From the NCBI GenBank assembly GCA_963514005.1, contig OY740787.1, forward strand, positions 69,378,001-69,442,000: a DNA stretch of 64,000 bases. Direction: 5' to 3'. This document shows, piece after piece, positions 12,892-47,454 of this stretch (the stretch's first letter is position 1; each line of letters starts with the position of its first letter). The notes under the pieces were generated by a model. The model was not told the origin of the DNA. It did no database searches and saw nothing but the letters and a program-made list of their open reading frames with translations. This DNA comes from Raja brachyura. Lineage: Eukaryota. Both the position numbers and the translations under genes were made by a program.

Positions 12892-12981
12892 GTAAAAATA
12901 TGGTTCCAAAACCAACGACAAAAAGAGAAAAAACTTCTTCGTGTGCACCAAACGACGCATCCAAGTTGCCTTGGCCTGTAA
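12892..12981 (+). CDS. hoxd14: HoxD14 exon 3 (helix 3 and stop)
   Basis: Acceptor ttttcag|. Encodes VKIWFQNQRQKEKKLLRVHQTTHPSCLGL*. WFQNQR and the intron inside the homeobox are PG14 hallmarks. Confidence 0.93.
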   Translation, partial: VKIWFQNQRQKEKKLLRVHQTTHPSCLGL

Positions 12982-15069: not shown

Positions 15070-15189
15070 AAGGTAGACAAAATGCTGGAGTAACTCAGCG
15101 GGTCAGGCAGCATCTCTGAAGAGATGGAATGGGTGACCATTCTTGAGAATATTCCGGTCCTTCTTCAGAATATATTCTTCAGAATATTC
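15070..15189 (-). mobile_element. Rearranged PLE-like repeat copy with 14-bp flanking direct repeat
   Basis: Family core GCTGGAGTAACTCAGCGGG...GGAATGGGTGAC; ATATTCAGATACCT at 15056-15069 and 15190-15203. Confidence 0.8.
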
Positions 15190-15550: not shown

Positions 15551-15635
15551 TGCTTGGGTAACTTTCCGATTGTCTTTAACTATGGATGCGCGTTTGGTTG
15601 CATGTATTTATGTAAGCATATACGTATGTATGCGT

Positions 15636-15738
15636 CGAAGGTAGACACAAAGTGCTGGAGTAACTCAGCGGGACAGGCAGCATTTCCGGAGAGAAGGGAT
15701 GGGTGACGTTTCGGGTCGAGACCCTTCTTCAGACTGAT
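15636..15738 (-). mobile_element. PLE-like repeat copy with intact hammerhead-like core
   Basis: - strand AGT-CTGAAGA-A-GGGT-CTCG-ACCC-GAAA-CGTC-ACCCAT (core 15705-15732). Confidence 0.85.
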
Positions 15739-15870
15739 GTATAAATGCGTCTGCCTTTCTGCTTGTTTAGCAGGCTATCAGCGTGTCAATCTATTCAATT
15801 TCGAAGTCTGCTTCATGTTGAGTTCTGCCTTGAGCATTTGGTATTCTTTACATATTTTCAGCTTTATGTA

Positions 15871-16037
15871 AAGGGTCTCAACCCGATACGTCACCCATTC
15901 CTTCTCTCCAGAGATGCTGTGTGTCCCGCTGACTTACTTCAGGAAGAAGGGTCTCGACCCGAAACGTCACCCATTTTTCCTCTCCAGGGATGCTGCATGT
16001 CCCGCTGAGTTACTCCAGCATTTTATGTCCACCTTCG
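15871..16037 (+). mobile_element. Tandem dimer of the PLE-like repeat, inverted relative to the 15636 copy
   Basis: AAGGGTCTCAACCCGATACGTCACCC at 15871 and AAGGGTCTCGACCCGAAACGTCACCC at 15947 (76-nt offset). Confidence 0.85.
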
Positions 16038-17462: not shown

Positions 17463-17710
17463 GATACAAGGAATGGCAGATGGTGGAATTCTGCGTAGAA
17501 CAGAAAGTACTGGAGTAACTGCACAGGTCAGGCAACATACATGGAGAACATGGATATGTGAGGTTTCGGGACGGGGCTCATCTTTAGACAGTCTGAAGAT
17601 GGGTCCAGACACGAAATAGTGCGAAGAAGGATACCGACCAGAAACGTCACCTATCTATGTTCTCCGGAGATACTGCCTGGCCCGCTGATTTACTCCAGCA
17701 CTTTGTGTCT
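17463..17710. mobile_element. Diverged inverted pair of the PLE-like repeat
   Basis: - strand arm to about 17590, then + strand GTCTGAAGATGGGTCCAGACACGAAA and GAAGAAGGATACCGACCAGAAACGTCACC...CCCGCTGATTTACTCCAGCACTTTGTGTCT. Confidence 0.75.
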
Positions 17711-20699
17711 AATATTATAGTCCTAATAGTTAACAGTACTGCCGAGTGAAGGTTCCAATATTTTTTACATGGTTTTGTAGGCGAAAATTGTAAAAGACCA
17801 TAAAGGATTCCAGCTTACTTGTAATTCAGTATTGGAGTTCCATTGGAAACCCTACCATTTTTAACATCGATTATTAGACTGCTACGGACATGGAAAACAT
17901 CAGGGTCTACTTTTTATAAGAACATTTGAAATATAATCAATACATTAAATAGTCAATTGTGCAGGGCAATTCTTACCGTTTCGGAAGAATATTCATTAAC
18001 TTGTCTCTTCATCTCTGCCTATTCCTGGCAACGTTTTCCAGACCCGTAATTCGACTTTAATATTTGAAACCAGCATTCAATTTTGCCGCCCTGAAATTAG
18101 GTACGCCCACCAGCTCTGGACATCATAGCCACTTCTATGATAATTGCATTATGACAATTTACACATTCTCAACATTAATCAAGAGAAGGTAAAAAGTAAA
18201 TATTGGTTACTTTAAAATGAATACTGGGCCTGCACTCTTAACCAATTAACCATGTCGTGGGAGGTCCCCCGATGGCTCCTGTTGTACAATAGGAAAGGCC
18301 AACCATTTATGCTGAAGTGCACAAAACCTTAGTGAAGAACGTTACCGTGCAACAATCTTTCTTCAGGTTCATTAATGATCACGGGGAAACCGAATTTCCA
18401 GTATAGAATGCTTTCGAGGATGCGATGTCCTATAAGATATTGTTAAACATAGTTGAGAATGTTTAAGTAGAATATTGTCAATATAATTTGAATATTTGAG
18501 CTAATCCTTTTAAACACTAGACAGTGGGATTTATTTATCACGTCATCACTCTCAAGTAGAACGACTCACGGTGGTACTCTAGCATAATTGCAGTAGTGTA
18601 TAGATTTTTTTATCGTTTTATTTTGCAATTTTGAAATTCATTAAAATAGAGGTCAGAAGTATATTTGCATGCGCACCACTCCAATTCGACAGCTCACGCC
18701 TAGATTCTGCATTTTATGTGTATTCGAATTCTACGACCTTTCACGGGACATTTATTTCTGCTTATTGAAAAATGTATATCTATCCATAGGTAATACTATT
18801 CTGTTCTGGGATTAGATTTTGTTGCAAGAGGTGAATTCATTTCCATAGAAAATATATGATCCTCAAAGAATCTTCTGGTTTAAGATACTGTTTTAAACTC
18901 AAATGGAGGTCTTGGAATTGGATGCAGGCATATACGTTTTTAAGATGCAAACATTCCGTCGGCTGGATTTTAGCAGGCTCGCTCCCCACAACAAGAGTGC
19001 TACGTTTTTAGTATTTTCGTTGTGCGAACGAAGTATATTTAACAACCGCTTTTTTGATTTAGATAATGGCCTTAGTTTCCAAATTCTCTACAGATGCGCA
19101 GGCACAAACCGTAGAAATTTGTGATACTTGGGGCAGAAGGTATAGTTTTGTGGCTTGCAAAGTAGTAAATTACTTCCGTTGTTCCAACTCGAACACACGC
19201 ATATAGGTCGAGGCAGGAGGCGCTCATTTTAAGCGTTTAATCGGTTGCTAATGACGGTAGATTAAAGACATCTTTCGTTATCCTGATTATTGTTGATAGT
19301 TTAAATCCATTTTAGTTCTAAGTCCGCCATGTTTTCACGGTTATTATTGATGCAATTCGGCAATGTCGCAAAGAAAATCTATTTCATATCAGCGATTGTC
19401 AAAAGTTTATATTCAATTACATATATTGTGTCAGAAAAAAAATGTATACGGGGTAGCCAGGCCTTGATGGGAGTTTGTTTTGCATTTGCAAAATATTTCT
19501 GGAGAGTAATCTGGTTTCATTCAGGTATTAATATCGTCCATCGCGTTTGACAAAAAAGACATGTTTACGAGAATGTGTAGTCAAACGGGGCTTATATAAT
19601 CTGTTACATAGTCAGATTCACTTATGAATACCTGGATGTATATTATATCAATTGATCCTGCTTTTAAGAAGATGCCTGTTAACGTTAACAAAGTAAAGAT
19701 GATACTTTTGCATAATAACATAAAATTTACCTTGGGTGCAGCATAAATTGCATCGAATTGCTTCGCGTGAGCTGAATGGCCCCACCATTACTTTAAAAAA
19801 CATCTAAATGTGTAAAAACCTTCTGATTAGAATTAGAAACATATCTGACATACTATCAAATGAACGGAATTGAACTTGGTAATGGATACTGTCCATATGT
19901 GGGCATATATTACCCATATACAAGATATACTTAAGAACCGAAATATTGTTAATGCGTTAGGTTTATGATTCGCTCTATGGATCTTGCCATCCGGAATGAC
20001 ATTCAGCAAACATGTTAAACAATAACTACCTTATGCTACTTGCAGTAGCCCCAACGTCACGAAAACGGTGTAGAATTAACCAAATGCTGTGCGTTCGAAG
20101 CAAAAATACCCAAACTACAATTCTCAACACCATCCACAATGTGACTGAGAGAAGTTTTCTGTTTAAGTTTCCACAAGAATAGGAAACAATTAAAGAAAAT
20201 AATCCTGGATCCAAATAACACCCAATAAATGCTTTTAATGTTCATGTAAATCATCTGCTCGCTATATAACATTAACATTTTGCAAGGAAATACGACCAAT
20301 CTACTTGAATAAAATGGAGATTTATATTTGCCTCGATCGCCTCTGTATTTTTGATTTGATCTAGATACTGGCGATGCTTCAAGGCCACGTTCTTTGCCAT
20401 GATAAGTTGACCATGGGTCTTCTGGTGAAATCCTACTTGAATTCTTACTCAACTTGTTAATGAAAATGGCGTTTTACTTTTACAACCAATTGAATAAGCA
20501 AAGTAACACATCCCCTGTTTGTAAATTAGAGCCTCGTTTCACATAGTTCTACACGAATACTTGTCTTCAACCCATGATTGGACATATTAGAAATAAAACA
20601 TATATTTTAGAATCTGTTATAATTCGCACCTAACGTCATTTTTTCAAATTGTCACGTAACTCCCACGGAGCTGTGGAACTGCTTTTAACCGCTATTTAC

Positions 20700-29865: not shown

Positions 29866-30445
29866 ATGTGCGAGCACAATCTGCTAAATTCAGGCTATGT
29901 CGGCTCCCTGTTAAATTTTGCCAGCCCGGAGCCTTTCTACTTTCCCAACCTGCGTCCGAATGCGGCTCAACTGGCAAGTCTGTCACCCGCACTCTCTTAC
30001 ACCCGCCGGGAGGTGTGCTCGCTCCCGTGGACTTCGAGTCCATGCGCATCGCCGCCGCAGAGCCGCGCCTTCAGCGGCTACTCTCAGTCCTATCTCAGCA
30101 ATTCTGTCTCCATCAGCATCAATAGGCATGGATCAGACAAAGCAGCGGCCGGCGAAGAGCCCACCAAATACTACTTCCAAGACAGCAGCCGAAAACTGGA
30201 GGAGAGATGCAGACACAGTCAGTCCTATCCAAGTGAAACCAGTATCCCTTCTTCAGTCAATATCAACCCTGCTAAGTACGAGTACCCAAACGTGGAAACA
30301 TCTCTCCATGGCTCCTCCTTACATAATCAAGGCTTTGAATTGAATTCCAACTCTCCCTCTGTAAATGAAGGCGTCAAGCAATGCGTGAGCCTCAATATGT
30401 CATTACAGTCACCAGTAACGCCAGTGTGCAACAGATCCTCTGATG
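29866..30445 (+). CDS. hoxd12: HoxD12 exon 1
   Basis: MCEHNLLNSGYVGSLLNFASPEPFYFPNLRPN is a PG12 N-terminus. Donor GATG|GTACAG, phase 1. Confidence 0.96.
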
Positions 30446-30937
30446 GTACAGTATCAGTGCAGTATTAAAACGATAACCGTTTGAAACAAAAATGTGGTAT
30501 CCGTCCTCGTTCAAAGTGCTACCTGTCATCTTCATTTGTTGAACATCGGTGATCTTGGAACAAATATGCTTAAAGCAATCAAAATCACCATGAAATAATT
30601 ATTGTAATTACATTACGAGATAATACAAACGTAGATCAAACCATAGGTGATAACTAGTTATTGCACCTAAAGCGTATAATTACAACGTCGTTTTTTTTTA
30701 AACTTTAAACGTTAGTCAACTTAAACGACAAAGAGAACATAGCATATACCTGATTTTGTTTTGTAATTTTATTTGGAGGCCAAAAAAAATCAAAAGATCT
30801 CTTTGTTATGATTTAAATTAGTTAGTTTTTGTACGTTGACGATGACAGAATATTTAGATGATCGGATGCCTTGTTTAAATATTTGTGTTTATTCTATTTG
30901 TCTTGGGGAATACTTAAACTGCTTCGCAGCGTTGACT

Positions 30938-31169
30938 GTTACACAAAAAGCTGGAGAAACTCAGCGGGTGCAGCAGCATCTAAGGAGCGAAGACTGTTGT
31001 TTGTATGATTAAAGGCCAGCAAAGTAAAGAATATGGTATCGAATAATAACCAAATTATGAATCGTGCAAAAGAGTCTGAAGAAGGGTCTCGACCCGAAAC
31101 GCCGCCTATCTCCTTCGCTCCTTAGATGCTGCTGCACCCGCTGAGTTTCTCCAGCTTTTTGTGTAACCC
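30938..31169. mobile_element. Inverted pair of PLE-like repeat copies inside the HoxD12 intron
   Basis: 30938-30992 and 31113-31167 are perfect 55/55 reverse complements. The right copy is flanked by TATGAATCGTGCAA (31056-31069, 31170-31183). Confidence 0.9.
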
Positions 31170-31301
31170 TATGAATCGTGCAATGTTGACAATGTTAGCG
31201 CGCGAACTAACAGACACATTAAAGTATCGACTAGCTTGCGATGATAACGTGGGTAAAGTGCGACAATGTTTTCAACGTTTTTTTCCAATTTCGATTTGCA
31301 G

Positions 31302-31540
31302 GGCTCTCCTGGTGCCCGACCCAAGTGAGGTCAAGGAGGAAACGCAAGCCATACACAAAGCAACAGATAGCTGAACTTGAAAATGAATTCCTCGCGAACG
31401 AGTTTATCAACCGACAGAAGAGAAAGGAATTGTCTGACAGGCTAAACCTGAGCGACCAACAAGTCAAAATTTGGTTTCAAAACCGGCGCATGAAAAAGAA
31501 AAGACTTATTATGCGCGAACAAACGCTATCACTCTTTTAG
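31302..31540 (+). CDS. hoxd12: HoxD12 exon 2 (homeobox)
   Basis: Acceptor ttgcag|. Encodes [68 protein letters not shown]. Confidence 0.97.
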
Positions 31541-34500
31541 ACCAAAGTAAAGTTTAAATGTGAGTTTCAAGGTCGTGAATTAAACTTTTTTAATGGTAAT
31601 TAAGCTTGCTCGCAGAAAGCATGTAGATCAAGAATATCCATTGTTTTAATGGAAAGGTGCTCCTTTGATGTGCTGTCATATAAAACAGCAATCTACCATT
31701 ACATTGCCACTGCCACTAGTCCAGGGCGTGTTGGTTTAGTTTAACCTCAGCGGCATAAAGGGACTGAGATGCAAACTATGGATACCTCGTGAAATATTGT
31801 TATAGCAGGAAATTGAACGCCGGGCAAAAAAAAAAGACTTTCGGTTGCCTGTATCTTGCTGTCCGTGGATGACATACCAGCGCCTTATCATCACCATTGA
31901 ATAGTTTCAAATGACATTTGTAGCTATTTCGTTTCTTGTTTGTTTAAATTGCTCCATGACTCTTCACTTGAGTAACAAGCAGATATTCTGCATTTTGAGA
32001 ATGTAAGTACAACAGGTAATTAGAATGGAACATTCGTATTTTAATCTTAAAAACATAAATATTATGCATGCACTCTACCTATGTAAATTGAGTAATAATA
32101 AAACGAATGTCGAAACAATTGTTCCTTTGTATATATGTCATACTCTTTACTAATTGAATTATAAAGGTAGAGCCGGTAGGCTGATTAATTGTAAGGTGTA
32201 TGCAGATCCTATCAAGATGCAGACTTAATCGTGGGTATTACATTCATCTTTGGAAAGCAGAGCGTGTTGGGGATATATGATAGCTATGGCTGCGGATTTT
32301 AATCAGGAGTAGGTGCGCGAAATATTTACATTCTGGCCACGCTTCAATATTGTGTGCTGCTCTGATTTTCAAGACTGCGCTTACTTCGGCTGCATTACTC
32401 TGTTACCTACTGAACCCAACTGAAATTACAGGTGAATCTGGTGCGTATAATAAAACAAGTAAGCAAATGTTGTCAAACAAATTAAAGAAATAAAACACAT
32501 GAGTAATAAACAGTTACAAATTTGTATTTTCCCTGGTTCTTTTAAAGACCCGCACTGAACAAAATAAGAAAGAAATGCGCTTCATTTTTTAAATAACATT
32601 GATTTATTGCTGTCATTTTAGTTCAGTAACGTAATTACTGAAGGAGCCATTTCTAAATGTTAGAATATTTATACACTAGCTTTTTAATTCGGATGTACAA
32701 TATTAACCCGCTACACGAGCCGCGGAACTGGGAAGTATCAATTGTCAAACAGCCAAATCACAAGGTACAAAGCTTCAAACTCAACGGCTTCCAAACAAAG
32801 CATTAATATTGCACCAACAATACACCATTAGTATACAAGCATTAGTATACAATTTTTCTCCGTATATTTAGTTTACCTATCAACTTGAATTTTTGATTGT
32901 TAAAAAAGTCTGATGAACACTTCGATATTTTGAAACGATGGGAATATAAGCACATCGAATCCAGACTAAACGAAACATATTTTCTCCCCTTATTAAAGCG
33001 GAAACTGTACCCAATAGAAATACTTCATAACATTAAGACACCCCGTGGTTTTTCTCTCCCACTTTCAATCGGTTGGCTCCTGATTTGATTAGAAGCCATT
33101 TAATACTTCCCGGTTGGGAGGTATTTCCTCAATTATCCATTTTTCATGCGCAATGGATCTTTTTTTTATTAAAAATAATATTAGCTGCCCCTACGGAAGT
33201 GTTACCAGCTAATTTCAAAGTATTCACTTATATCGCCAGAAAGAGTAAGCAACCTTTCCGTAAGACTATCGTTATTTGATCGGTTATGACGTGATCTATT
33301 TCATTTGAAGCAATAAATGGACATTTGTTAATTTAATGTCCTACCGTTTGGCGGCGATTCAATTATTGCCGAACAGTTTAGAAATTATTATTTCCTAATA
33401 AATGTAGCAATAATAATCGATATTCAAGAATGAAGCAAAGAGATCCGAAGGGGATCATTTCATGGGCCTTTTATGGACCACATCACCGCCGGGTCCGAAT
33501 GGATTCATTTATTAAAAAAGATGGATTCAAGTTTTTCACTAATTTCAATGCTGCTATGTAATTATGTTATGATTATTAATGAATGAGGGCTTTAACGGAA
33601 TCTCTGTATCTGTGCCTGAGCATTTACCAGACGATGTAAACGAGACCAAATGAGTTGCAGCCTCTTTAATTTTCTTTCCAGCAAATCAGGGCGTGGGTGG
33701 GCTGAAAGCAGGCAGTTCTTCCAATCCCGCCATTTGTTTGGCCTGCCATTAATTAAGCATGCGCCGGGCGATTTTCATGAATCTTTTAAAACCGTTTATT
33801 GAAACATATCAATTTCAAAATAAAAATGAATCTATTAAATGCAATTATTTGACACCGCATATCTTTTTTTGGGGATTCATCAACAATATTTCACGGGACT
33901 TAAATATGTTGAGATAATAAATGGTGAACGAACAGTTCTCAGGATTGTTACACTGTGCCTATGAAATTCAAATAGTGTTTTGTTTCAAACCACGTATGTA
34001 AATGAGAATTGCACTGCAAACTACGAAACGACACTGTTAACAGCATTAAAATAATTCGTGGGATATATTGAAATATTTCCTGGTGGCAAAACCACTGTTT
34101 ATGCCCTTGTTCCTGGGCTTCATCTTTCTTGCGAGCAAATAAAAGAAAAAAATAGGTGCCTGTAGCCCAGATGTTACATACATTTTCCTGTGTTCCTGTG
34201 AACTGGGTAATGAAAAGAGAAGTGCTGCCTTTGTCTGGGGCCTTTTCCATTTCAGGAAGACGGATTTTATGAGAGAAAATACTTTAGATTAGGAGACACG
34301 GAAGTAAAGTTTCCACCATTGCCACTGCATATAAAATATCGAATTAAATGTTTATATATCCCACCAAAATCAATTCTCGTAGGATTGGTATATATTTGCA
34401 TAATATTACGTGGATTGCACTAAGTGTGCTAGAAACGAACTCGTGAAGTAATACATTGCTCACTTGCTACCACAACTCCAAGTGCAATCACGATAATAAC

Positions 34501-35029
34501 GGTAGCCTTTCTACCGACTCTTTGTCTTCCATCATGGGCTGCACATTGATATACACAAACACCAAAATTTGTAGGCCTCGTCTGAGTCAGAAGATATGCA
34601 AACTGTGATACCATACATTGACGTTTCGTAAATTTTTTTGTTAATGTTATTATCATTCCGGTTCAAACATTACTTAGAAATAAAACTGCCTGGGATTCCT
34701 GTAGTTTAGCGTTGCAAATTCACGTGTAAATTGAATTATAAATTAACTTATTAAAAAGTCCTCATGCCGTTCCAACGACTGTTGGTGTCTTTTGGGGAAT
34801 GATTAGTCCTGCGCATGATGCTGAATTTCTAAATACTTTCCCAATGCATTAAACATAGACATTTATTTTAACTACGTTATTCACATTCATCTGTTGGATA
34901 AACCTAAGTCACACAAAATGCTTGGAAACCTAAATGCATTGCAACAATGTTATCGGATTTGCAGCAGTGCTAACCCAAGCTTTGGGAAATTGTCGACTTT
35001 CAGTCGAATCGCCTAGAATCTCTTTTTCA

Positions 35030-35120
35030 TTTCATTTTTATGGTCGAGCTGCCAGACGGTGTGTCTACATGTTTTCCAGATACCGGGGGCGCCATAACAA
35101 AGTTAAGGTCAAGTTAGTGC
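35030..35120. promoter_or_regulatory. D12-D11 regulatory block (RX-like position)
   Basis: TTTTATGG (Abd-B/Cdx site), CTCF-like ATACCGGGGGCGCCA, CCATAAC, and AAGTTA-AGGTCA-AGTTAG. Confidence 0.5.
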
Positions 35121-37684
35121 TTCTTTTTGGATCGCAGAAGTCTACCATACCGCTCACTGGTCGTGTACTTTGCCTGACCAATGAATGTTGCTTTCCACAT
35201 TGGAAAATATTATTTTTTCGTGCAGTGCAACACAAAAAATATATAACGAGGCGAATATTTTGCTGGATCGTCAAACTGAAAACAAAGATCGTGGTCTTGA
35301 TGAATTGCGTAAGAGAAGCAACGCCCTACAAACTAGATTCGTGCATCGCTTAATGTTGTATGTAAGAGAATGATGTCTGAACTTGTGCTACAAAGAAAAA
35401 CATATCTTGTAAAGCGGTATTAACGTTGATTTCCCCATCGCCGGTCTGCAGCGTGTTAGATTCTTGCAGACTATAAGCATTAAGTGCGCTCCGAACACGA
35501 GACGGGAACAAAGGCCACGCGTAATTCCCGTTCTATTCGCAGTTATTGCCAAGTTATTGAAGAGCGCTGGCTAATGCTATTTGACCGTTGTTTTTGATCA
35601 ATTAATACAAATTACATTGAGGGTTTGACCAGCACTTTAATCTTTTTTTCAAATAGCTGCATTGAACAACAGAAGTATTATAACCACAGAATAACTGATT
35701 AAATCGTGTAAGTCACGAGCCTGTGAACAGTAGTCGCAAGGATGAGACATATTAATGAAACATGGCAAATATTAGGTTCCAACGGAACGTTTAAAACCTT
35801 CATATGTTGTATAGTAGTGTGTGAGTGTGCCTATGTTAGAAGTGTCGTATTTCTAATAATTTACATGGCATGCTGCCGAACACCCTGCATTTAATCCTTC
35901 ATTGTGATTTGCCGTATATTTGTTATACCCTATTACCGTTAACGAGAAGATGGATCACTTAGTTGTATTAGGTTTTACATTTTTTATTTAACCTCCTCGG
36001 TATGCGGGGTTTAATCATTACGAGTAGTGAAATCAAATTCCGATCTTTTAGCATACTAGACTTTCTTTTTCAGGTATTATTATTATTTCTACAGCAAACA
36101 ACTGGAGGCTGGATCTCACTAATTAAACCAGTACAGTGTCACATGCCTGATGCTGACATCGACCGGATGTCACATTTTATATCTCTGTGCCCGTGGATTC
36201 AACGAATTTAAATTCGCATATTATTGTATTTAGAAGTTTCTGGTAATCTATATATGTTTCAGAAAAAAATATTTTGTTTCCAAAAATATAAACCTCAACA
36301 ATAGTGCGTGTCAGTTCGGTCAGTATAAGATATGTATTTGCATATTCTTGTTAATCGAGAGTTCCCAATTTAATTAGGTGTCATTCTCAGATTGCTCGAA
36401 TTTGTGGCACAGAATTTTTGATCTAAACCGCCAGCTGTAAATGTGCTCAACTATGGATTTTAATCCGTCAAACATTGATCATGCATAATAGGGGAGAATA
36501 ACAGAAAAATAAAAATGTTATGCTGCACTGGTGAACTTTTTTTTCTCTCTGTGAAGCTATTTTTCCTATAGAACAATTTAGATTTGATAGTTACTTGCAA
36601 CCTTCCTCTGGTTTAATTTTCGCCTGACTGGTGTTCCACTAAGAGAGCTGCAGTGTAGCCCACGTGTGTAGATTCAAAGACTCTTCAAATCAAAATTTCG
36701 CTCTCGTGCAAATCAAACTATTTTTTTAAAGATCCAGGTTATCGGAATTGAGCGAATTACGGAAAATCGCATCAATACAGGGCCTTTAATCCTTAAGCGT
36801 ATGAAAGCAATTTCTCATATTTTTAGCATACCAGACTTTCATATTACATTTCCGTTGTTTTAATTTGAAAGGAAGCCTCGCAATAATAGCGTACCTAGAG
36901 TGACTCTCGTGTCCTGAGAATATTCTAACTTTTGTAGCACGACCATATTTTGATGTTAGTCGTAATGGTAGTGGTTGCTGTGGGGTGGAGTTCAAGCAGT
37001 TCACGAGGCTCCAACCTTCAAAATCCTGTGATTTATACACACCCTGTTAGTGCTAAAATATAATATTAAATTCACACATCCTGGACAGTCGGCTTACGAA
37101 ATGTAAATTATACATTATCATTTAATGTAGTAAAACAAGATAGGTAATTGCATATTCCTGTCAGTAGCAAGTTCCTAATTTATTTAATATACTGAAGCAG
37201 AAGCAAAATAATTAAAAACTAGCCATTTCAAAATAATTGCATTATCCTTTACTATGATTGGCATTTCCACACGTTTCTGTATGATACATATTTTGAAAAT
37301 TGTATTCATAGAATTTATAAATACATAATTTAACCATGATGTAGTTTAGTCTGCAAGTAACATTTGCATTTGTTAACAGCAAATTATTACGAAATGTAAA
37401 AGATAATCATTTATATTCTTTCTGACAGACTGTCTCGCGTTATTATGAATATGAATTCACCAGCTAATGAACCCCAATTGATGGTTTTGATGTTTTCAAA
37501 AGTCCAAATGCAAATATGACAGACTACGATACGGACACTTCATTTTTTATTGTAGTTTTTTTTCCCCCAATCAGAGCACAAATCCTCGATCATGGGAAAG
37601 AAACGCAGCTAACATGTAACTACTGAAAGCCAATAGGCTAATTTCGAATTATCTACCGGTTCCCAAGGATGGATCTTAATGACC

Positions 37685-37775
37685 AAAACTGATATATGGT
37701 AATTTCTACATTGGATCACATGACTCGTTTACCCTCAGAATCAATCAAGATGAATTGCACGTCAGCTTACGTTCC
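37685..37775 (+). promoter_or_regulatory. HoxD11 promoter / 5' conserved block
   Basis: TTCTACATTGGATCACATGAC (CCAAT box plus E-box) and AATCAATCAAGATGAATTGCACGTCAGCTTACG, directly upstream of the CDS. Confidence 0.6.
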
Positions 37776-37888
37776 CAATCTTTTTTTTCTTTCGCCGACC
37801 CGTTCATACGCCTTTAGAGTAGAATAGATGGAGCATGCTTAACGCCATCAATCCTGATAATTTGTTCTCGAAACCACGAAAACAAAAC

Positions 37889-38492
37889 ATGACTGAGTTT
37901 GAAGAGCGTGGTAGCTGCAACTCCAGCATGTATCTACCCAGCTGCACCTACTATGTTTCAGGCCAAGATTTCTCGGCAGTGTCAACGTTCTTACCGCAGA
38001 CGACTTCTTGCCAAATGACATTTCCGTACTCCTCTAATTTAGCTCAGGTCCAACCTGTTCGCGAAGTATCGTTCAGAGACTACGGGTTAGAACTTCCGAC
38101 CAAGTGGCATTACAGGGGCAACTATACTCCTTATTGCCCCGCAGAAGAGATCATGCACAGAGACTATATCCAGCCACCGGCCAGGACGGGAATGTTGTTT
38201 AAAAATGATAATGTATACAGTCAGCGTGCAAGCTCAAATCCATCTTGCAATTTCTACACCACAGTTGGCAGGAATGGAATACTCCCGCAAGGTTTTGATC
38301 AGTTTTTTGAGACAGCCTATGGGATTCCCGACAATTCTAATTATGAACATTTGACCGAAAAGTCCGTGTCTACGTGCCAGAGTATTACAACGTCTGATAA
38401 AGTTTCTGTGGATCAGACGAAAGAAAGTGCAACCGAAAAGAACACTGGCGAATCCTCCGGCAACAGTGTGGCCGACAAAGACAGCCTATCCA
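37889..38492 (+). CDS. hoxd11: HoxD11 exon 1
   Basis: Encodes MTEFEERGSCNSSMYLPSCTYYVS...QPVREVSFRDYG...GRNGILPQGFDQFFE. Donor TCCA|GTAGGT, phase 1; an alternative in-phase donor follows 38504. In-frame upstream ATG at 37835. Confidence 0.95.
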
Positions 38493-38547
38493 GTAGGTGC
38501 ACTGGTAACCCAGGGGTAGAATATAGGGCCAACACATTTTGTCTCAC

Positions 38548-38632
38548 AGATTTTATGTGAAATTTTATAAGCAGACGCAGGATTTTATATACCCTATAAG
38601 ATCTGCTTTAAAGCTGTAAAGATTGTTTACGA
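38548..38632 (+). promoter_or_regulatory. Cluster of Abd-B/Cdx-type sites at the start of the HoxD11 intron
   Basis: TTTTATG, TTTTATA (twice), CTATAA, GTAAA and TTTACG within about 85 nt. Confidence 0.5.
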
Positions 38633-39018
38633 TGGGAAATCAGTTTAGGTGGGCTTTTTGAATATGCAAAATCATGATTACTCGATGTGCAAGTTCCTGT
38701 ATTAATTTCTGTAATGTGACTATTATTTGTGCGATGATATTTTTGTTCTATGTTTCGCGAATCTTTTCGTTCGTGCAAACAAGACCGAGCTTAATTCAGG
38801 ATTCGTTTCTGGTACTTAACTTTCAATATGGGTATAACTATGCAATAAATTAATTAAACGCGCGATTACATATATTCATTGTATATCTCTATGGTGGCCG
38901 TGTGCGACCGTTATGTTTTGCGCCATTTTACATCAAGTTTAAATAGGTACAAGAAAATAAAGATCGCGTCTATTGGTTTAAGATAATTTGTAACTTTTTA
39001 AAAACACTTTTCCATCAG

Positions 39019-39251
39019 CTGCTCTGCGATCCAGAAAGAAAAGATGCCCCTATACCAAATATCAGATCCGGGAACTTGAGCGAGAATTTTTCTTCAATGT
39101 CTACATCAACAAAGAAAAACGCTTGCAGTTGTCGAGGATGTTGAACCTCACCGACCGACAAGTCAAAATATGGTTCCAGAATCGCAGAATGAAGGAAAAG
39201 AAACTTAGCAGAGACCGCCTGCACTTTTTCACTGGTAATCCTTTATTGTGA
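39019..39251 (+). CDS. hoxd11: HoxD11 exon 2 (homeobox; missing from the supplied ORF track)
   Basis: Acceptor tccatcag|. Encodes [76 protein letters not shown]. Confidence 0.97.
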
Positions 39252-40569
39252 CTATGATACAGCATACCCCGATGGATTCCCTTTGGCCGACTCTTCATTG
39301 CCTTAGTCAATATTTATTTACACAAGGAGGGACTGCAAGTTTGATGGAAACGGTTTTGCTGTTCTTGTATGGAAACCAATTTAAACGATTAACATAGAAT
39401 TGAATTTGAGATGACGCGATGGTGCAGATAACATGGACGTAATGTTGATTAGGAAACATTCTTACCTCAGCATAGATGTTATTCCGTTCGAAAGGAAGAC
39501 GTTTGATTCTGCTGCATATTCAGGGACAATAAACGGTTTTCATTTTAAACAGCAAACTGGGGTAAGGGAGGGCTAAAATTAAATATTGTTAGTTCACAGC
39601 GATGGGTCAATCACATAAGACAATGTGCTCGATTTCTTCTTTTGGTCGATGTTAGCCAAACTAACCAGAATTGTTTAAGTTGTGTATTCCGGTGAAAAGA
39701 AGAAATGCATATTTATTACTCTACCCTTTCAGTCTATGTCATGACATAATTGTAATATACTGTAGCTAGGGACGTTTAAAGCAGATGTGATGTTAATAAT
39801 AATGTTTCCGGGTTACCCACTAGTTGACATTTCACGGTAAACGCATGTGATAGGATGTCTTTCCTTTCCAAATAAACATTCAATATGTTAGTATTGAAAT
39901 TTCAATATGTTATTCCAAATATTCAAATAAAACATCTTTTTACGATAAAACGACCATTTGCGTCTTTATAAGAACATTCCGTGCAAATGGTTCCAAAGAC
40001 CACCGTCAAATAACATAACTATTATTAAATTCTGCAATATAACAAAAAGCAAACATTATAGTTTATTGGATTAATTACAAAATAGTGGAAACCGGAAATA
40101 TAATCCGTATTGCCTAATCTCTTGACTATTTTCGGCATATATGGATCCGAGGTTCTTATGTTTCACGTCTCTGTGAGCAGCCATTTAGCATACAGCCTTG
40201 ATACAAAAATGGAAACACAATGAGCCCTATTTTAGATGTAAAGCTATATGTAAAACTGAAGTTTTGCTTTTTAAGCATAATAGAAAGTTGTAATTTGTTT
40301 TTATAAATATTTGATTTAATATCATTACCAGTCATTACCTGGAAATCAATTGATGGGTCTATTTCGATTACTTGTGAAGACAAAAGACAAATAGCAACAT
40401 ATGTGAACAATTAGCTGAATTTCAGCTGAAGGGAGGCACTTAAATGTATACATAAGATCGGACAACTTGTAGCTCACCTCGGAGACTTATTAGAAGAGCG
40501 AGTTAAGCTTCGCAAAACTCTTCGAAAAAGAATTGCCAAATTTCCGTGCCGCATGACATAGCTTTGCTG

Positions 40570-40635
40570 TTTACAAAACCTTGAACTGTCTAGACAACAT
40601 CGTAAAGTTCACTGCTCCAAACAGCTTAATGGCGA
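40570..40635. promoter_or_regulatory. Candidate ortholog of Hoxd11 3' conserved region RVIII
   Basis: AAACCT-TGAACT, CATCGTAAA and TTAATGG, about 1.3 kb 3' of the HoxD11 stop. Assignment is by position and motif content only. Confidence 0.45.
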
Positions 40636-40934
40636 CTTATTGCACCTTCTAGTCACGAAGATGGGCTTCCGCATTCTATTCCAAACAAAAGGATGGAAGG
40701 AAATCAAAGTGAATAGGGCCGACTAGATGATTTTAAAAAGGAAGAAACCACAACATCAATTACATTTATAAAGTTTCACATTTGAAATTTTTTTTTTAAC
40801 AAAAACTGGATCGTGCATAAATTAAGTCAATTGAATCTGTCAAACTTAATGAAGACCAGGATGATGCTCAAAAAGTGGTGTCGTCTCCTGAGCATACTAA
40901 AGCATATTTCGTGAAGAGGATGCTTATAATGTTG

Positions 40935-41005
40935 CCTTTGAACTTCTATAAAGTCAAGGTCATCACCTTTAACCTTTTTAAAGACATAGGCGCCTGGTGG
41001 CTGTT
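40935..41005. promoter_or_regulatory. Candidate ortholog of region RIX (nuclear-receptor element)
   Basis: TGAACT at 40939; AAGTCA-AGGTCA DR0 at 40951-40962; TCACCT-T-TAACCT DR1 at 40963-40975; followed by a partial CTCF-like GGCGCCTGGTGGCTG. Confidence 0.6.
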
Positions 41006-43009
41006 GGGTTGCTCTTGCAGCTTCCCCAGCTCCAAAGTAAAACAGAATCTCCAATGTTTATAATATACTATTGTGTGCGCATGCTTAAGTACTCAACTAG
41101 TAAAAATTAAAAAAACAATACTCTTATTACTAAGCGTTAAGATTATATTCAACAATATTCTTGAATGTTGCCATGAACATCCATTTGCTCCTCGTTGGGC
41201 TTTACACAGTATAGTTTATTCACATGCGAACTGAACTAGTCAAAATATTCATCGTATGTCTGTACACTACACCAATCATCCGCGAGGGTCTTGGTTTCCA
41301 TGGGAATGGGAGAAAATGTAATTTATGACTCAGTGGTTGAAGATTTCCACGTATGTGTGACACCTCCACATATTCCGTGCTCTTATAATGTTTCATTCTT
41401 AACTATGTGAAGGTGACCCGGTGCAATTCTTCCTTCAATGACCTGTAACACATAATATAGTTAGCTTAAGGTTTTAAAAAATGAACGCAGAGCAGCGAAA
41501 ATAATTTTACAGTGATACTCTGAACATTGTCAAAGATGGTTGCTTTTATAAAGAGCCACATGGAGGCGCACTCCAGCCCATGACCACGACCGTACTTGCA
41601 AGCGAAGTCTGTGGCAATGGCTTTCGGAGATGAACATGAAATTAACTGAAATAATGTGAAGCCTTGCAAGCGGTAAAGTTCTGTTGCCATCAGATATCTG
41701 GAGCAGCAGGCCGACGAAGGCAGTTAAGTGAAAGGGAGTTCGTTGTAATGGTAAACTGCGATTTGTTTTTATTGGTTTGGTTTATTAGTCGCTTTGAAGA
41801 AAAAAAATCTTCATGTGCTCGCTGGAATGAGTACAAAATCATATTTATTAAAAAATGTCCCAATTATATTTCTCCAAGGGATACGTTCAATTTTACTTAG
41901 TTTATTTGTTAAAATCGTTGATCAGATGTGTTTGACGTAGAAATGTTGGACTTGCATCCATGGGGCCGAACAAAGCTTTTGTAACGAGCAGTAGAAAAAA
42001 TATAGGTTTGGGAATTATTTATCGAGCAATTTCAAATAAGAATTGTAAATGTATATAGTAAACTATAGGGAACATAATATTCCTAGTTCCATATTCCGAA
42101 TAACGTGAAAATTGCTAAGGCGAACAGATAAATGCTGAACAGTTACGTTCACATCCTGCTGATGTGGCCGGTTGAAATGCCAGCACACACTATTTTAACC
42201 AACGCTTTCTGATTACTGCTTCTCCAAGATCTCTCCTCATATCTTCCCCACTTTCCAGAGTGCTTTATAAAAGTATAAAGCATATAGTGACGAACACCGC
42301 CTAACGTTTCAGCTCATACATTCCACCTCGATAATAAAGAGTGTTAAACCACAATAGTAATTTCCTTAAAAAGAGGAAACAAATTCATGTCATCGTTGCC
42401 TTTGAATTTCTCCTTACTTTTTCAAAAGTGGAAATATTGGAGGAAACATGTACTTTAGCAATGAAAAATGTGCAGCTACCGCTTTATATCCCTGACAATA
42501 GAGACGAACTATATTTGTCAGTGACTTATATCATTCTGATCATATTCTATCAGCTGTTCAAGTGAAATAAAATGTGCACTCCACTGGTCACGTTTAAAAT
42601 GTGAAATGTTCATCTTTCTTTCAAAATGGGAATAGTTTTCAAGAATTATCTCTATTATACACAAATAAATACTCCTTAATCTGGCAATTCAAAAAAAATC
42701 TCCACATAAGCAATGTACTTCATAATAGGCAACCGTTGATCAGGGTAAATTGCAGAAATTACAACTTAATCTCCAATAATATGTTGACATTTATTGGGTG
42801 CATTTGCTTTTCACATCGGCCCATGCTAGCGAGCTTAAGATCACAGTCTGGCCGTGATTCCTTATTTCGCGACAACGGGGAAGTTCATCCTTAGCAGATT
42901 ATCCTCACATCATATCGCACTTTTTAGTCATTTTTTGTGGACATTTTTCGATCTGTCCTCGTAAAAATCACCTTCATTGCAGTTTAAAATGACGAGAAAC
43001 TGTTCTGGG

Positions 43010-43085
43010 AGAGTTTATTGTTTATCTGCCTGTTCATTTTATAAGGCCATAAAAATAGTGCGTGTCTTTTGCTCAGATAAAATCC
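43010..43085. promoter_or_regulatory. Abd-B/Cdx/GATA motif cluster between D11 and D10
   Basis: GTTTATTGTTTATCT, TTTTATAAGGCCATAAAA and CAGATAAAA. Confidence 0.4.
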
Positions 43086-46000
43086 CGCCGAAAATGCATG
43101 GACATGTATTATTTGAACAGAGGGAAGTTAATTCTCTGGTAAGAATAAGGGCTTACTTACATCGCCGATCGTTTAGTGATAGCAAAAATCGCAAAGGTTT
43201 ATTTGATGTGACAAGGAGTGAAGTGGTTTAAATATGAGGAGTTGTGTTAGTAATTTGCAATTTGTAGTCAAGCGTAATGAAAGCGGCAGCCGTGTACACA
43301 ATAAATTGGCTTTCAGACATAATTTAACTGAAAACATTCGATGAAGAAAAATATTTCCGAAGTATCTACAGGTGGTAACATTAAAACAAAGTTTGTCAAA
43401 GAGCAACCGCGGTGGTACTGCCGAACGCTTAACATGCATTTTGGCCGGATGTTTATGGAATATTGTGATAACAAGGAAGGTTTTCGAACAGTCCTTTTCA
43501 GTCTATATCCGAGGAGCTTTAAGCTGAAAGACCAGGTTGAAATTGATGGCATGCTCGTGATGATAATAATTTTCAAAATTGACATAGAAATATGGAGAAC
43601 GTCCGAATATCAGGTTAAAAGTGCAGGATATAAGTGGACGGCGGTTTCTGGGTCATAAGACCACCGCAGTTTAGGCTAATGAGGAAACCAAGTGGGATGA
43701 AAGAAATGATAATACGCTAATTAACTTCATAAGGAAAACAAAATAAATTTTATCCGACGAAATGAGGCAACGATTTTGAAGTGCTTGGTCAACATTTTTG
43801 GAGAAATTAGTCTTTGTATTATTTTGTTAGGAAAATTATTATTATAAGCTATGTGTTGGAGAATGGCGAATCTGTTATATGGCAAATCACTGCAAACGTA
43901 ATAAAGTTGCCTCCATGTTCCTGCTTAACTCTAATATCCATTTAGCTACCAATATATAAAATCCTTTCAGCAAAACACATTCCACATTGGTGCTTTAAAG
44001 TATTACGAGGTTTTAATTAAGCTCCATCATTAGAACTAATTTAAGGAGGATTGTACGTAGGTTTCCCCCCATAAACAGCTTATAACTACGTTATTAAACA
44101 TGGAAGTATCGTTCGGAGACTAATCACTCACTCTACTATCCAAGTACTACTAACACAACAATTCCTTTGCTGTAACTTGGCTCGTCTTCCAGTGAGCATA
44201 CCCAGACCATAACAGTGGTTTGATTCTATAATAGTCTCTCCTGCCTACTAGGACACTTTATATTGCAAAGAATACATATCCGTTAATTCCAGTGCATCTG
44301 TAGTCGTTATATTTTATGAGTTTTTTTCGTACAAGGGATTTTAGGATACATTTTTGCAGACACCATTTTACTTAAGTTCATTGAAATTACGAGTTGTCCT
44401 ATGTCATTGAGAACTTTAAAAAAAAGTTAATTTGTGTAGTTGACTTGTAATTTTCAGTGATTGGTACAATGCGATTGTCTGATGCACATAATATCCCATT
44501 ATTATTAGTTTTACTGAACATATTACAATAATTAACATAAATAAGTAATAGCCATGTACACAATTGCTGAAATTGCTTTGTAAATTTAATAAACCCTCTA
44601 CCTAGTCATTTATAACTGATACATATCCACACACATACACCAATATATGATTATGCCTTTCCACAGAATTTTGCGGTCACTAATGCATTTCATTTTAACA
44701 CATTTGGAGCAAGAGTAAATGTTATTCCGATTAGCATAGTATGCCATTTACTGAGCAACGCGGTGCCTTATTGTGGGTGGAAAGGAATGAGGTCCGTGGT
44801 GAAAATGCATTCGAACTATGCCTGGCCTACTTTAAGTTCAAAGGCAACACTTCCATCAAAGACGAGAAGATTTGGACACCACAATTTCTACAGGTAAGTA
44901 ATTTAATATAATGTCGGCCAGAATACGCCAAGTTCTCGGCCTTTCAAGGCAGAGCGAAGCATTTTTTGTCTGGAAAATGTGCAGCATTGGTTTCTAACGT
45001 AGGATTTCTCTTGGTTATATGCTTCTGTATACCCGTAATCACCACCAGGCTGCTTTGGTCAATGTTAATCTAAATAGCGTCGATATTAAAAAATGATATT
45101 GGACTACAGAGAAGTCAGGCGCGTTCTCAACTAACCGTGGCTTATGTACTCAAAACAACCGAGATTCTCTAATTGCATGTAGTAGTTATTTAGGTATCAT
45201 GTTCTCGGTATAGCGTGCTCTCTACATGTGTTTACTGAATGGCATCTGTAACATTTAGAGTCTGTTTCATTTTACTGACACGTATGCTACATTAGAATTT
45301 AGGTTGTGCCAACTTTAAGGTTTGAGGACTACAAATTGATGACGGAGAAAATAACAAATAATATTTAAAAATTGTATTTCCCTTGCATTTTACTATTAAT
45401 CCCCGCATTGGCATCCAGTGTTCTAAGACGACAAGTGAAGGAATATTTACATGTGTACTCCTGCTTTGCCTTCGGTTAGAAGGAAAGGTTTGCACATGAG
45501 CGCTAATAAGTTGCATGAACATTATCAATGACGAATTCACCAAGAATACCGCATGCACCTGGTCTCAACTGGATGCATGACATGCCCCTTCACATAGCCG
45601 TTAAAGACTTGGTCAATTTATTGTGTACGAAAATAAGGATGACCCAACGATCTTCAGGGTTAGTAACACGCTTTTTGGAACTCCTTTGTCAAGACAAATG
45701 TGGTTGCTGACCGAGCTATTTTGGAAATATATATATAAGCTCCCCAGGATCCAGATAATTGTACTTCGCTGCAAATGCTTATTGGATTTAATACCTTGTA
45801 TCAGTGGAATGTGGTATTAAACATCCAAGGGCTACGAAGTGGCCACATTCTGACTTGGAATAAACAACGTTGAACTTAAAATAGTAATGGGAAATAAGGT
45901 CGATTAGTTTACAAAACGTGGTACAAAATATACCAGTTGTCAACTGTAGGGATGCATGTTGTCTAATGAAAATGGTATACATTTGTGCCTGATGTGCATG

Positions 46001-47454
46001 ATCCACGCATGCTTACCTTATTATCAATGTTCACGGCCATTTTTGTATAATTTAAAATGTTTGGCGCAAGACTAAGATTAACCATATTCTGAATCAATTA
46101 CCGAGCGATGTAATTACATTTAAAAAAATAAAAGAAATGGCGCAGCCGTGACAACCTTGACCCTGAATCTGTCCCCTTCACACTTTTTGGTGTGAAGTAG
46201 GAAATATCGTTAGTTTTAATTGGATGTCAAATTGATCCTCCATAGCTGATCCCCATCGAGCTGGTTTTCCCAATAGTAAGCCGTGAATATGTGCTCTTAT
46301 TTGGCATTTTGCCTCGAGAAGCGCAGAGAGGTCAGAAAGCGCTTGCTACGGGTAAGAGCACAAATAGCATAAGCATCCGTCATACTAAATTCAACAAACA
46401 CCGAGCGGTGGACCCTAGGAGGGCGTTCTGGCAGCGTTTCTGTTACCTTACATGATAGTTCGATTTTGAGAGGCTGACACCTTTTCGTCCTATTATGGAA
46501 AATATTTCCACCGATCATCATCGGCGATGGAACAGGGAGAACGTGGTAAGAACTCAACCTTAAGGGAGAGTTTTTAGAATAAAGTAATAAAATCCCAGCG
46601 CCAATAATCTTCATTAAAGGTCATTCTCTGCCCTAACAAATTAATGAGAGGTTTTGCAAACGCGGCGCTTCCTCCCCCACAGTCTTAAATCTTGTATGTC
46701 CGTGTAAATTTTCGCACGCAAAATACCGCATTAAGAAGTGTGTATTGTCACCCCGAGGTGTTTCTGGCTTTTACCCAGCATTGACATTTTGTATAATAGA
46801 AAGCATAGGCGCCCACCGTGGTGAGGGTGTGAAATAGACATTTTTTTTCTCACGAAGATTTGGTTTAACTTGTAACGAAACATTTGCAGATGTGAAACGA
46901 TTATTTAGAGAGCAAGAAATGTACTGATGAATTCTGGAACGGATAAACAGGAGCAAGGAATCTACCGATGAATACCAATGTGGATGGAGATGTTGATTCC
47001 ACGCATCGATTTCACAACACACTTGTTCAATGCCAAAGCACCGAACGGCCGCATTGGTTTTATGTGGGGATAAGGTATCCTGCACACACTGGACACCCTT
47101 TTGGTTTATAAAATTACGATAGGTATCAGCACTCTGCTCTGCATTCGTTTAATTGCGAGGAGGTTTACGGTCGAGTAAGAAATGCCTGCAGTTAGTTTTT
47201 TATCGATCGACGTCTTTGTTGTTAGAATTTCTAGGAAATAAAATGTTGTTGCACTTTTAGCAAACAGAATACAACCAGAATGCTGATTACTTTCCCGTTT
47301 ATGGCAGGGATGAGATTATACAACGTAAACGCTGCATGCGTTGAAGGATTTGAGTGGGGCTCTGTGCGCAGATTAAAGTGAACAAGAGCGGGCGCCGCTT
47401 TGGCATTGGGTTTGTAGGTGTCGCTGTTGTCCACAGTTAAGATCAAATTCAACT

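What the first reader, a model, noticed from the sequence alone, without database searches (positions are those of the whole stretch)
15636..16037. Repeat family with a Penelope-type minimal hammerhead-ribozyme motif has colonised the HoxD cluster
Seen: about ten related 50-130 nt copies at 9240, 9469, 15070, 15636, 15871, 15947, 17463 and 30938/31070. The best-preserved reads CTGAAGA-A-GGGT-CTCG-ACCC-GAAA-CGTC (- strand 15705-15732; + strand 31076-31103 ends in CGCC). This is CUGANGA, a 4-bp stem II, GAAA, then a palindromic ACGU in place of stem III, then UC. Known: Penelope-like element pseudo-LTRs and retrozymes carry minimal hammerheads with vestigial palindromic stem III, proposed to cleave as dimers, and often insert with inverted or tandem ends. 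Inference: this is a non-autonomous PLE/retrozyme-like family; the tandem dimer at 15871/15947 fits that biology. Caveats: stem I is only about 2 bp (GU/AC), there is one extra A after CUGAAGA, and both dimer units have damaged cores, so these copies may be inactive.
Basis: partly seen in the sequence, partly recalled or inferred. Interest (0 to 1): 0.85.

Follow-up and report, generated by a model that had tools for sequence, protein, structure and literature searches.

The report
Penelope retroelement stubs with hammerhead motif
The short repeats beside the posterior HoxD genes are truncated end-pieces of a Penelope-like jumping gene that carries a known kind of minimal self-cleaving-RNA motif; they are very common across this fish genome and rarer, not commoner, in the Hox cluster, so the finding is real but mostly ordinary.

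Summary
The repeats are real: 12 pieces in the window, most insertions with 7-14 bp target-site duplications. The motif fits the published minimal hammerhead of Penelope-like elements (PLEs). They are not a separate retrozyme family. The unit is the 3' end of the pseudo-LTR of autonomous Neptune-type PLEs: 31073-31167 matches intact elements (1,204-aa RT + GIY-YIG ORF) at 94 of 95 bases, and the one difference breaks U16.1. A 1.4-Mb sample gives about 1.1 million pieces (3.5% of the genome). The window is depleted (5 sites against 19 expected), and Hoxd11-d4 has none in 63 kb. The 15871/15947 'dimer' lacks both CUGA cores. Stem I is 2 bp, stem II shows no covariation above shuffles, and cleavage was not tested. 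Two side results are less ordinary: 222 of 324 copies that reach the hammerhead stop at its 5' edge, at an initiator-like YCAGTC, and none pile up at the cleavage site. This suggests run-off cDNA from an uncleaved leader. The scan reported this kind of element before, in a shark genome (e1-7857333).

The parts
15636..15744 (-). Solo pLTR stub of the older subfamily with the best-preserved hammerhead motif (C3 at 15732, predicted cut after C17 at 15705); no tail
   Evidence: 7-bp direct repeat 15630-15636 / 15745-15751 (null reaches 7 or more in 16 of 300)
15705..15734 (-). Minimal type I hammerhead motif: 2-bp stem I, CUGAAGA, extra A, 4-bp stem II, GAAA, palindromic ACGU, C17
   Evidence: sequence; not the minimum-free-energy fold; cleavage untested
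15871..16037 (+). Partial tandem of two 5'-truncated stubs (+6..+77, then +2..about +96), one insertion; both lack the CUG of the core, and the first has GATA in place of GAAA
   Evidence: 9-bp TSD 15861-15869 / 16037-16045
9240..9393 (.). Head-to-head inverted pair of stubs, both truncated downstream of the hammerhead; tail on the right arm only
   Evidence: 8-bp TSD 9232-9239 / 9393-9400
9470..9637 (.). Head-to-head inverted pair, tail on the left arm only, no hammerhead core
   Evidence: 8-bp TSD 9451-9458 / 9638-9645
15070..15137 (-). Solo stub (+25..+94), no hammerhead core
   Evidence: no TSD above chance (6 bp)
17463..17714 (.). Older, diverged head-to-head pair of another subfamily, tail on the left arm
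   Evidence: 10-bp TSD 17444-17453 / 17714-17723
30938..30992 (-). 55-nt stub of the young subfamily (+37..+91) in the Hoxd12 intron
   Evidence: exact match in intact array L085; 7-bp direct repeat 30934-30940 / 30992-30998
31073..31167 (+). Young-subfamily stub (-3..+91) in the Hoxd12 intron; starts at the A of the Inr-like motif; carries a private U16.1-to-C change
   Evidence: 94 of 95 bases identical to L085 and to the 3' pLTR of L084; 14-bp TSD 31056-31069 / 31170-31183
11099..12981 (+). Context: Hox14-type gene (Hoxd14); the insertions at 9.2-9.6 kb and 15-17.7 kb flank it
   Evidence: name from gene order and recall
29866..31540 (+). Context: Hoxd12, whose intron holds 30938-31167
   Evidence: name from gene order and recall
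31200..64000 (.). Context: Hoxd11-Hoxd8 stretch with no copy; the empty stretch runs on for 30 kb beyond the window

Best explanation
The repeats are 5'-truncated, inverted and partial-tandem end-pieces of the pseudo-LTR of autonomous Penelope-like retrotransposons with a Neptune-type linker, and they carry a minimal hammerhead motif that is predicted, not shown, to cleave and is broken or missing in all but one window copy. Shown: the unit lies directly 3' of RT + GIY-YIG ORFs and at both ends of intact elements; insertions have variable AT-rich TSDs; 3' ends fall in two clusters about 35 nt apart; inverted pairs usually carry the tail on one arm. Inferred (by analogy to the anole PLE in vitro): the element's protein nicks AT-rich DNA, often on both strands, and starts reverse transcription at two internal sites in the leader. 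Inferred from my counts (about 50% likely): most short copies are run-off cDNAs that reach the RNA 5' end at an Inr-like YCAGTC three bases upstream of the core, which would also explain why stem I can only be 2-3 bp. The RNA is copied uncleaved. In intact elements the hammerhead likely works only as a dimer or with protein help. The Hox copies are tolerated passengers at the relaxed posterior end of a cluster that otherwise excludes the family.
For: PLE link: all 40 scored of 13,970 candidates match ORF end plus unit (86-89% apart from the self hit). One search, four 1,203-1,204-aa open frames, L084 with hammerheads 3,971 nt apart flanking the ORF, and a head-to-tail array of 3,965-nt units., RVT_1 E 2e-4 and GIY-YIG E 1.7e-3., YIDD, CNRKRCYTC linker and YIGET. 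One search, intact ORFs 98.4-99.1% alike, window copy 94 of 95. PLE anatomy: tail on one arm in 40 of 57 inverted pairs (none 14, both 3). 3' ends cluster at +85..99 (222 of 562) and +115..129 (213 of 562)., TSDs of 8 bp or more in 5 of 8 window insertions and 20 of 106 sampled solo copies (null 1 of 300), 68% AT. Motif kept: commonest letter differs between six subfamilies at 3 of 32 hammerhead columns against 23 of 62 downstream (Fisher p 0.007); position 1.1 is A or G opposite U2.1. 5' boundary: 222 of 324 copies reaching +6 stop within about -6..+6; loose ends at -4..-2 in all 4 runs laid. No pile-up at the cut site: 22 starts at +25..30 against 21-33 in six neighbouring bins. Literature: PMC4209133, PMC11167929, 10.1101/2021.04.23.441226, PMC3846280.
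Against: Both Pfam matches are below the curated cut-offs, and no tree against named PLE clades was built, so 'Neptune' rests on the linker motif. Stem II and stem I pairs do not covary above shuffles in 223 copies. The hammerhead is not the predicted fold; GAAGG pairs with downstream CCUUC instead, with z-scores -1.1 to +1.4. Stem I cannot be extended. Conservation of this region could reflect promoter or protein-binding function rather than catalysis. The start-site reading has no RNA evidence: contigs cannot show 5' ends. The cap-G hint is weak (G at -4 in 8 of 16, p 0.048, uncorrected). 5' ends spread over about 12 nt rather than one base. The host/UTR classes are heuristic.
Confidence: 0.88

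Rival explanations
1. A self-standing non-autonomous retrozyme/SINE-like family: short hammerhead units that propagate from their own tandem or circular RNAs using PLE protein in trans.
For: Most copies are only 100-135 nt and start at the hammerhead edge. Tail-to-unit joints occur in contigs. One 3-unit tandem of truncated units was seen (L106). The preprint 10.64898/2026.07.22.740005 reports pLTR-derived retrozymes in one chondrichthyan genome.
Against: Short copies share subfamily sequence with ORF-bearing elements. Of 22 same-strand neighbours within 160 nt, none appeared by inspection to be a clean head-to-tail pair of complete units. Head-to-head pairs dominate (68, against 22 and 21 same-strand). 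No 5' ends cluster at the cut site, as cleaved monomers would give.
Confidence: 0.1
2. The 5' pile-up comes from reverse transcriptase stalling or fold-back at the TCAG-T-CTGA palindrome and the purine-rich core, not from a transcription start.
For: Many inverted junctions centre on this palindrome. Palindromes at inverted PLE junctions are attributed to self-priming in PMC3846280. The ends spread over about 12 nt.
Against: 117 solo copies without an inverted arm show the same boundary, with background-like bases upstream of -5, and 20 of 106 of them have TSDs that fix the start at -14..+3. The motif fits YYANWYY (recalled consensus).
Confidence: 0.35
3. The hammerhead-like sequence is a catalytically dead relic kept for promoter or protein-binding reasons.
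For: 2-bp stem I, a competing fold, no covariation, and no genomic footprint of cleavage. In the anole PLE, hammerhead mutants did not affect insertion (PMC11167929). 8 of 9 Xenopus dimers did not cleave.
Against: All catalytic bases, G10.1-C11.1, the extra base and the ACGU palindrome are kept across subfamilies, while loop II and 1.1 vary. The D. virilis motif also has a 2-bp helix I. The anole motif cleaves only when protein is added.
Confidence: 0.3
4. A DNA-transposon MITE with terminal inverted repeats.
For: Inverted arms up to 100% complementary.
Against: The arms differ in length and end-point. TSDs vary from 7 to 15 bp. 140 of 225 sites are single-armed. The unit is linked to an RT ORF.
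Confidence: 0.01

Closest known systems
Minimal hammerheads (min-HHR) in pLTRs of metazoan Penelope-like elements (Cervera & De la Pena 2014, PMC4209133; parts 1-2 of 4 read)
   Same: Type I topology, extra base between 9 and 10.1, G10.1-C11.1, palindromic 15.2-16.2 with no loop 3, both pLTRs of full elements, most copies solo and probably truncated; reported there from Neptune, Poseidon and Xena elements of fishes.
   Different: Stem I is 2 bp (typical 4-5 bp; 2 bp is described for D. virilis) and stem II is 4 bp. Hammerhead-bearing copies here number in the hundreds of thousands (187 pieces starting at or before +3 in 0.8 Mb) against 4,000-9,000 motifs in coelacanth and Xenopus, although the counting methods differ.
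Neptune/Nematis-type EN+ PLEs (Craig et al. 2021, 10.1101/2021.04.23.441226; passages read)
   Same: Single ORF with RT, CX2-5CxxC linker, C-terminal GIY-YIG; 5' truncation, partial tandems, adjacent inverted 5'-truncated copy, 30-40 nt tail on one end.
   Different: No clade tree was built here. The ORF has a long Pro-rich N-terminal part (1,204 aa in all).
Poseidon element of Anolis (PAc; Frangieh et al. 2024, PMC11167929; parts 1-2 of 4 read)
   Same: Two internal RT start sites that define the tail, AT-rich targets, both strands used, uncleaved RNA as template, no footprint at the cleavage site.
   Different: In PAc the ORF starts inside stem II. Here the first ATG lies about 165 nt downstream of C3, past the tail. 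Different clade.
Animal non-LTR retrozymes (preprint 10.64898/2026.07.22.740005; parts 1-3 of 5 read)
   Same: Short pLTR-related units with a type I hammerhead.
   Different: Defined as tandem repeats with complete hammerheads in at least two consecutive units; not met by the window's tandem.

Membership tests
EN+ Penelope-like element | Single ORF with RT and C-terminal GIY-YIG endonuclease | tested here: met
   1,203-1,204-aa frames; RVT_1 and GIY-YIG in that order, both below Pfam cut-off; motifs visible; homologue P0022 passes both cut-offs
EN+ Penelope-like element | pLTRs from partial or full tandems flanking the ORF | tested here: met
   L084, 1,416-nt direct repeat at 99.3%; array of 3,965-nt units
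EN+ Penelope-like element | Adjacent inverted 5'-truncated copy and a 30-40 nt tail on one end | tested here: met
   40 of 57 pairs with a one-sided tail; bimodal 3' ends
EN+ Penelope-like element | Variable-length TSDs at AT-rich targets | tested here: met
Neptune clade | CX2-5CxxC linker before GIY-YIG (shared with Nematis) | tested here: met
   CNRKRCYTC; definition
Neptune clade | RT phylogeny groups with Neptune | not tested
   No named PLE reference set was at hand; no PDB relative
PLE minimal hammerhead | CUGANGA, extra base, G10.1-C11.1 stem II, GAAA, palindromic 15.2-16.2, UH | tested here: met
   15705-15732 and intact pLTRs; kept across subfamilies
PLE minimal hammerhead | Helix I of 4-5 bp | tested here: not met
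   2 bp; pair 2.3-1.3 is A-C in 146 of 223; no extension. A 2-bp helix I is described for the D. virilis variant, so this fits the variant class
PLE minimal hammerhead | Compensatory changes in stems | tested here: inconclusive
   Paired counts equal shuffle means; 0-4 two-sided changes per pair. The copies decay neutrally and the parent lineages share one stem II
PLE minimal hammerhead | Self-cleavage as a dimer or with protein | not testable with these tools
   Needs an in vitro assay
Non-LTR retrozyme | Tandem repeats with complete hammerheads in two or more consecutive units | tested here: not met
   15871/15943 units start at +6 and +2; no clean complete pair seen by inspection among 22 near same-strand neighbours
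Non-LTR retrozyme | Abundant circular RNA | not testable with these tools
   Only contigs were available
MITE | Fixed TIRs and fixed-length TSD, no RT link | tested here: not met

The most novel reading that the evidence does not exclude
About a million insertions in this genome are run-off cDNAs of the PLE leader. Transcription starts at an initiator three bases before the hammerhead core, reverse transcription starts at two internal tail sites, often on both nicked strands at once, and the uncleaved leader is copied to its cap. An autonomous retroelement would thus produce its own SINE-like family (3.5% of the genome) with no separate master gene, and the start site itself would cap stem I at 2-3 bp. 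This would be a genome-scale natural test of the 2024 in vitro model and would argue that hammerhead cleavage is not part of insertion.
Probability: 0.4. Interest if true: 0.55.

Novelty: new member of a known kind. Interest (0 to 1): 0.3.

Why it matters
As a hammerhead-in-PLE finding it confirms a 2014 result in another cartilaginous fish. Its value lies elsewhere. (1) A very young intact family with near-identical ORFs and a perfect tandem array is a clean system for asking what PLE hammerheads do. (2) The ends of its stubs record where reverse transcription starts and stops, and they show no trace of ribozyme cleavage. (3) The family is dense enough (about 3 sites per 10 kb) to map constraint across Hox clusters: it is absent from 63 kb of Hoxd11-d4 but tolerated around Hoxd14 and once, recently, in the Hoxd12 intron.

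Tried and rejected
Rfam scan: no hammerhead family hit, only sub-threshold miRNA-like hairpins from the inverted pairs. Splicing idea: the pLTR has a 3'-splice-like YAG just before the core and a donor-like AG/GTATG at the ATG, which could make spliced hammerhead multimers. No such joint was among the 15 joints listed (1,302 not shown), the listed tail-to-unit joints also stand in the likely DNA run, and truncated copies share no upstream exon. Unsupported, not excluded. Transcription: runs X1 and X2 are only guessed to be RNA and are contigs, so I draw no expression claim. A 61-nt own-genome search to sample 5' ends returned nothing because common words are skipped; I sampled 140 evenly spaced 10-kb stretches instead. 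Extended stem I by duplex folding: none next to the cut site. Two metagenome hits (L171, L172) keep the core with other loop II letters, but the pattern fixed stem II, so they are no covariation evidence. PDB search: 0 hits. Lunse et al. on short-stem-III hammerheads was not held; it is known here only from a review passage. Papers on chondrichthyan PLE hammerheads: searches listed none devoted to them; Repbase and Dfam could not be searched, so the family may already be catalogued there. No supplements were opened; alignments in PMC4209133's supplement may include such motifs.

Full report
Numbering. Positions in the repeat are given relative to hammerhead C3 (= 0); the predicted cut is between +27 and +28.

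Observation. The cited copies are present. BLAST with the 15636 copy gives 12 pieces in the window, and shuffled sequence gives none. Only 15732(-) and 31076(+) have CUGANGA, a 4-bp stem II and GAAA. Rfam finds no hammerhead. Direct repeats group the pieces into eight insertions: 8 bp (9240 pair), 8 bp (9470 pair), 6 bp (15070, chance level), 7 bp (15636), 9 bp (15871-16037), 10 bp (17463 pair), 7 bp (30938) and 14 bp (31073). Random window positions reach 8 or more in 5 of 300 trials and 7 or more in 16 of 300. The window runs Evx2, Hoxd14, d13, d12, d11, d10, d9, d8 (names by order and recall, HoxA13_N confirmed). Named homologues of the element's protein come from sharks, rays and skates, so the host is a cartilaginous fish, probably a skate.

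What the repeat is. Among 30 loci from the first own-genome search, L006 and L025 continue upstream into broken RT and GIY-YIG coding sequence, and L004 and L005 into the end of it. A search with ORF end plus unit gave 13,970 candidates; all 40 scored matched nearly the whole 711 nt. A protein search found many long open frames. Four of ten fetched stretches hold 1,203-1,204-aa frames, 98.4-99.1% alike in DNA, with RVT_1 (E 2e-4) and GIY-YIG (E 1.7e-3), both below Pfam's cut-offs. They show YIDD, a CNRKRCYTC linker and YIGET. The linker fits the Neptune/Nematis motif; no tree was built. L084 is pLTR-ORF-pLTR with hammerheads 3,971 nt apart, and L085-L086 is a head-to-tail array of 3,965-nt units, 99.9% alike. 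Window 31073-31167 matches these at 94 of 95 bases; the difference turns U16.1 into C. 30938-30992 matches exactly. The other window copies belong to older subfamilies that are also ORF-linked.

Abundance and the Hox claim. In 140 evenly spaced 10-kb stretches I found 562 pieces in 414 sites, 3.5% of bases, which extrapolates to about 1.08 million pieces (the stretches come only from the larger contigs). By the same rule the window has 5 sites against 18.9 expected (bootstrap P 0.0009). There is no piece from 31.2 kb to the window's end, nor in the next 30 kb, which hold further Hox genes. The cluster therefore excludes the family except around Hoxd14 and in the Hoxd12 intron. A preprint passage describes elasmobranch HoxC (and stingray HoxB) as repeat-rich compared with the other clusters (10.1101/2025.06.08.657570, passages).

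Anatomy. 3' ends cluster at +85..99 (222 of 562) and +115..129 (213 of 562). In the first 80 stretches, close neighbours were mostly head-to-head (68, against 26 tail-to-tail and 22 and 21 same-strand). Of 57 head-to-head pairs within 60 nt, the tail is on one arm in 40, neither in 14 and both in 3. This is the published PLE pattern. In the anole PLE it is explained by two internal RT start sites and extension of both nicked strands (PMC11167929). The 15871/15943 tandem is one insertion of two truncated units starting at +6 and +2; neither has the CUG of the core, so it cannot be a working dimer.

The hammerhead. I clustered 223 copies (of 324; those with an intact 5' side and a 3' end at +83 or beyond) on downstream columns into six groups, one small and noisy. 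The commonest letter differed at 3 of 32 hammerhead columns against 23 of 62 downstream (p 0.007). The differences lie in loop II, at 1.1 (A or G, both pair with U2.1) and at 1.2 in the noisy group. Against an active ribozyme: stem I is 2 bp and cannot be extended, paired counts equal shuffle means for every pair, and the predicted fold is a different one. Only 28 of 223 copies keep the core, both stems and the palindrome. A 2-bp helix I is described for D. virilis, and the anole motif cleaves only with protein, so activity stays open.

5' ends. Of 533 pieces with a 3' end at +60 or beyond, starts at +25..30 number 22, against 21-33 in six neighbouring 6-nt bins. Cleavage therefore leaves no footprint, which agrees with the finding that uncleaved RNA is the template. 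In contrast, of 324 pieces that reach +6, 222 stop within about -6..+6 (117 against host DNA, 105 against an inverted arm) and 102 run on into the element's UTR (heuristic classes). That is about 9% per base against roughly 1% per base downstream (my estimate). TSDs of 8 bp or more in 20 of 106 solo copies (null 1 of 300) put the starts at -14..+3. All four runs laid show loose ends at -4..-2, though other subfamilies' UTRs contribute to these. The sequence there, YCAGTC, fits the initiator consensus (recalled), and Penelope has an internal TATA-less promoter in its pLTR (PMC2377424, passages). I infer a start near the A at -3, which would make the short copies run-off cDNAs and limit stem I to 2-3 bp. 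An untemplated G at -4 appears in 8 of 16 informative copies (p 0.048, uncorrected), a weak hint of cap copying. Stalling or fold-back at the TCAG-T-CTGA palindrome is the main rival. My paper searches listed nothing on this boundary, but I read only parts of the papers.

Earlier scan note. e1-7857333 reported the same kind of motif in an intact shark PLE and called it known. My membership reading was formed before that look-up and rests on my own calls; look-ups by sequence and by place found nothing.

Verdict. A real repeat and a correct motif call, but a new member of a known kind: pLTR stubs of an autonomous PLE, under-represented in HoxD. Interest 0.3, mainly for the end-distribution result and the young intact family.

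Noticed in passing
L085-L086 (G000:C18:46359500-46379300): Head-to-tail array of four full 3,965-nt PLE units plus a partial one, 99.9% alike, with five intact hammerhead motifs; the open frame in each unit is 1,033 aa rather than 1,204, so a shared frame break was copied along.
   Followed up: partly
L084:5553-5717 (- strand), leader of the intact element: The leader is bounded by a pyrimidine-rich CAG just before the hammerhead and a donor-like AAG/GTATG at the ATG, like a 163-nt exon; no splice joint was seen among the listed joints. Several NCBI 'isoform' models in rays and skates contain this ORF, which may be exonisation or misannotation.
   Followed up: partly
window 30938-31170 and 15636-16037: Opposite-strand insertions 80-130 nt apart, each with its own direct repeat, with host DNA between them; the Hoxd12 pair is 100% identical over 55 nt. 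Possibly one event priming at two separated nicks.
   Followed up: partly
window 11099-12981: Hox14-type gene; only the C-terminal homeodomain part ([10 protein letters not shown]) lies in the last exon, so the homeobox is split by an intron. It is flanked by most of the insertions and by a long simple-repeat tract near 13.6-14.9 kb.
   Followed up: no
window 3693-4328 (-): Evx2 last exon with long poly-alanine runs.
   Followed up: no
L171 and L172 (metagenome contigs): Same core and stem II with other loop II letters and CUGAUGA; L171 has a 3-bp stem I that begins at the A at -3.
   Followed up: partly
random stretches, cluster 1: A subfamily in which about half the copies read GUU at the cleavage triplet and some have a U-G pair closing stem II; the ACGU palindrome is kept.
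   Followed up: no
L004, L005, L034, L058: Other abundant LINE-like coding fragments sit beside or interrupt PLE copies; L034 also has a 271-aa transposase-like frame (named from recall).
   Followed up: no
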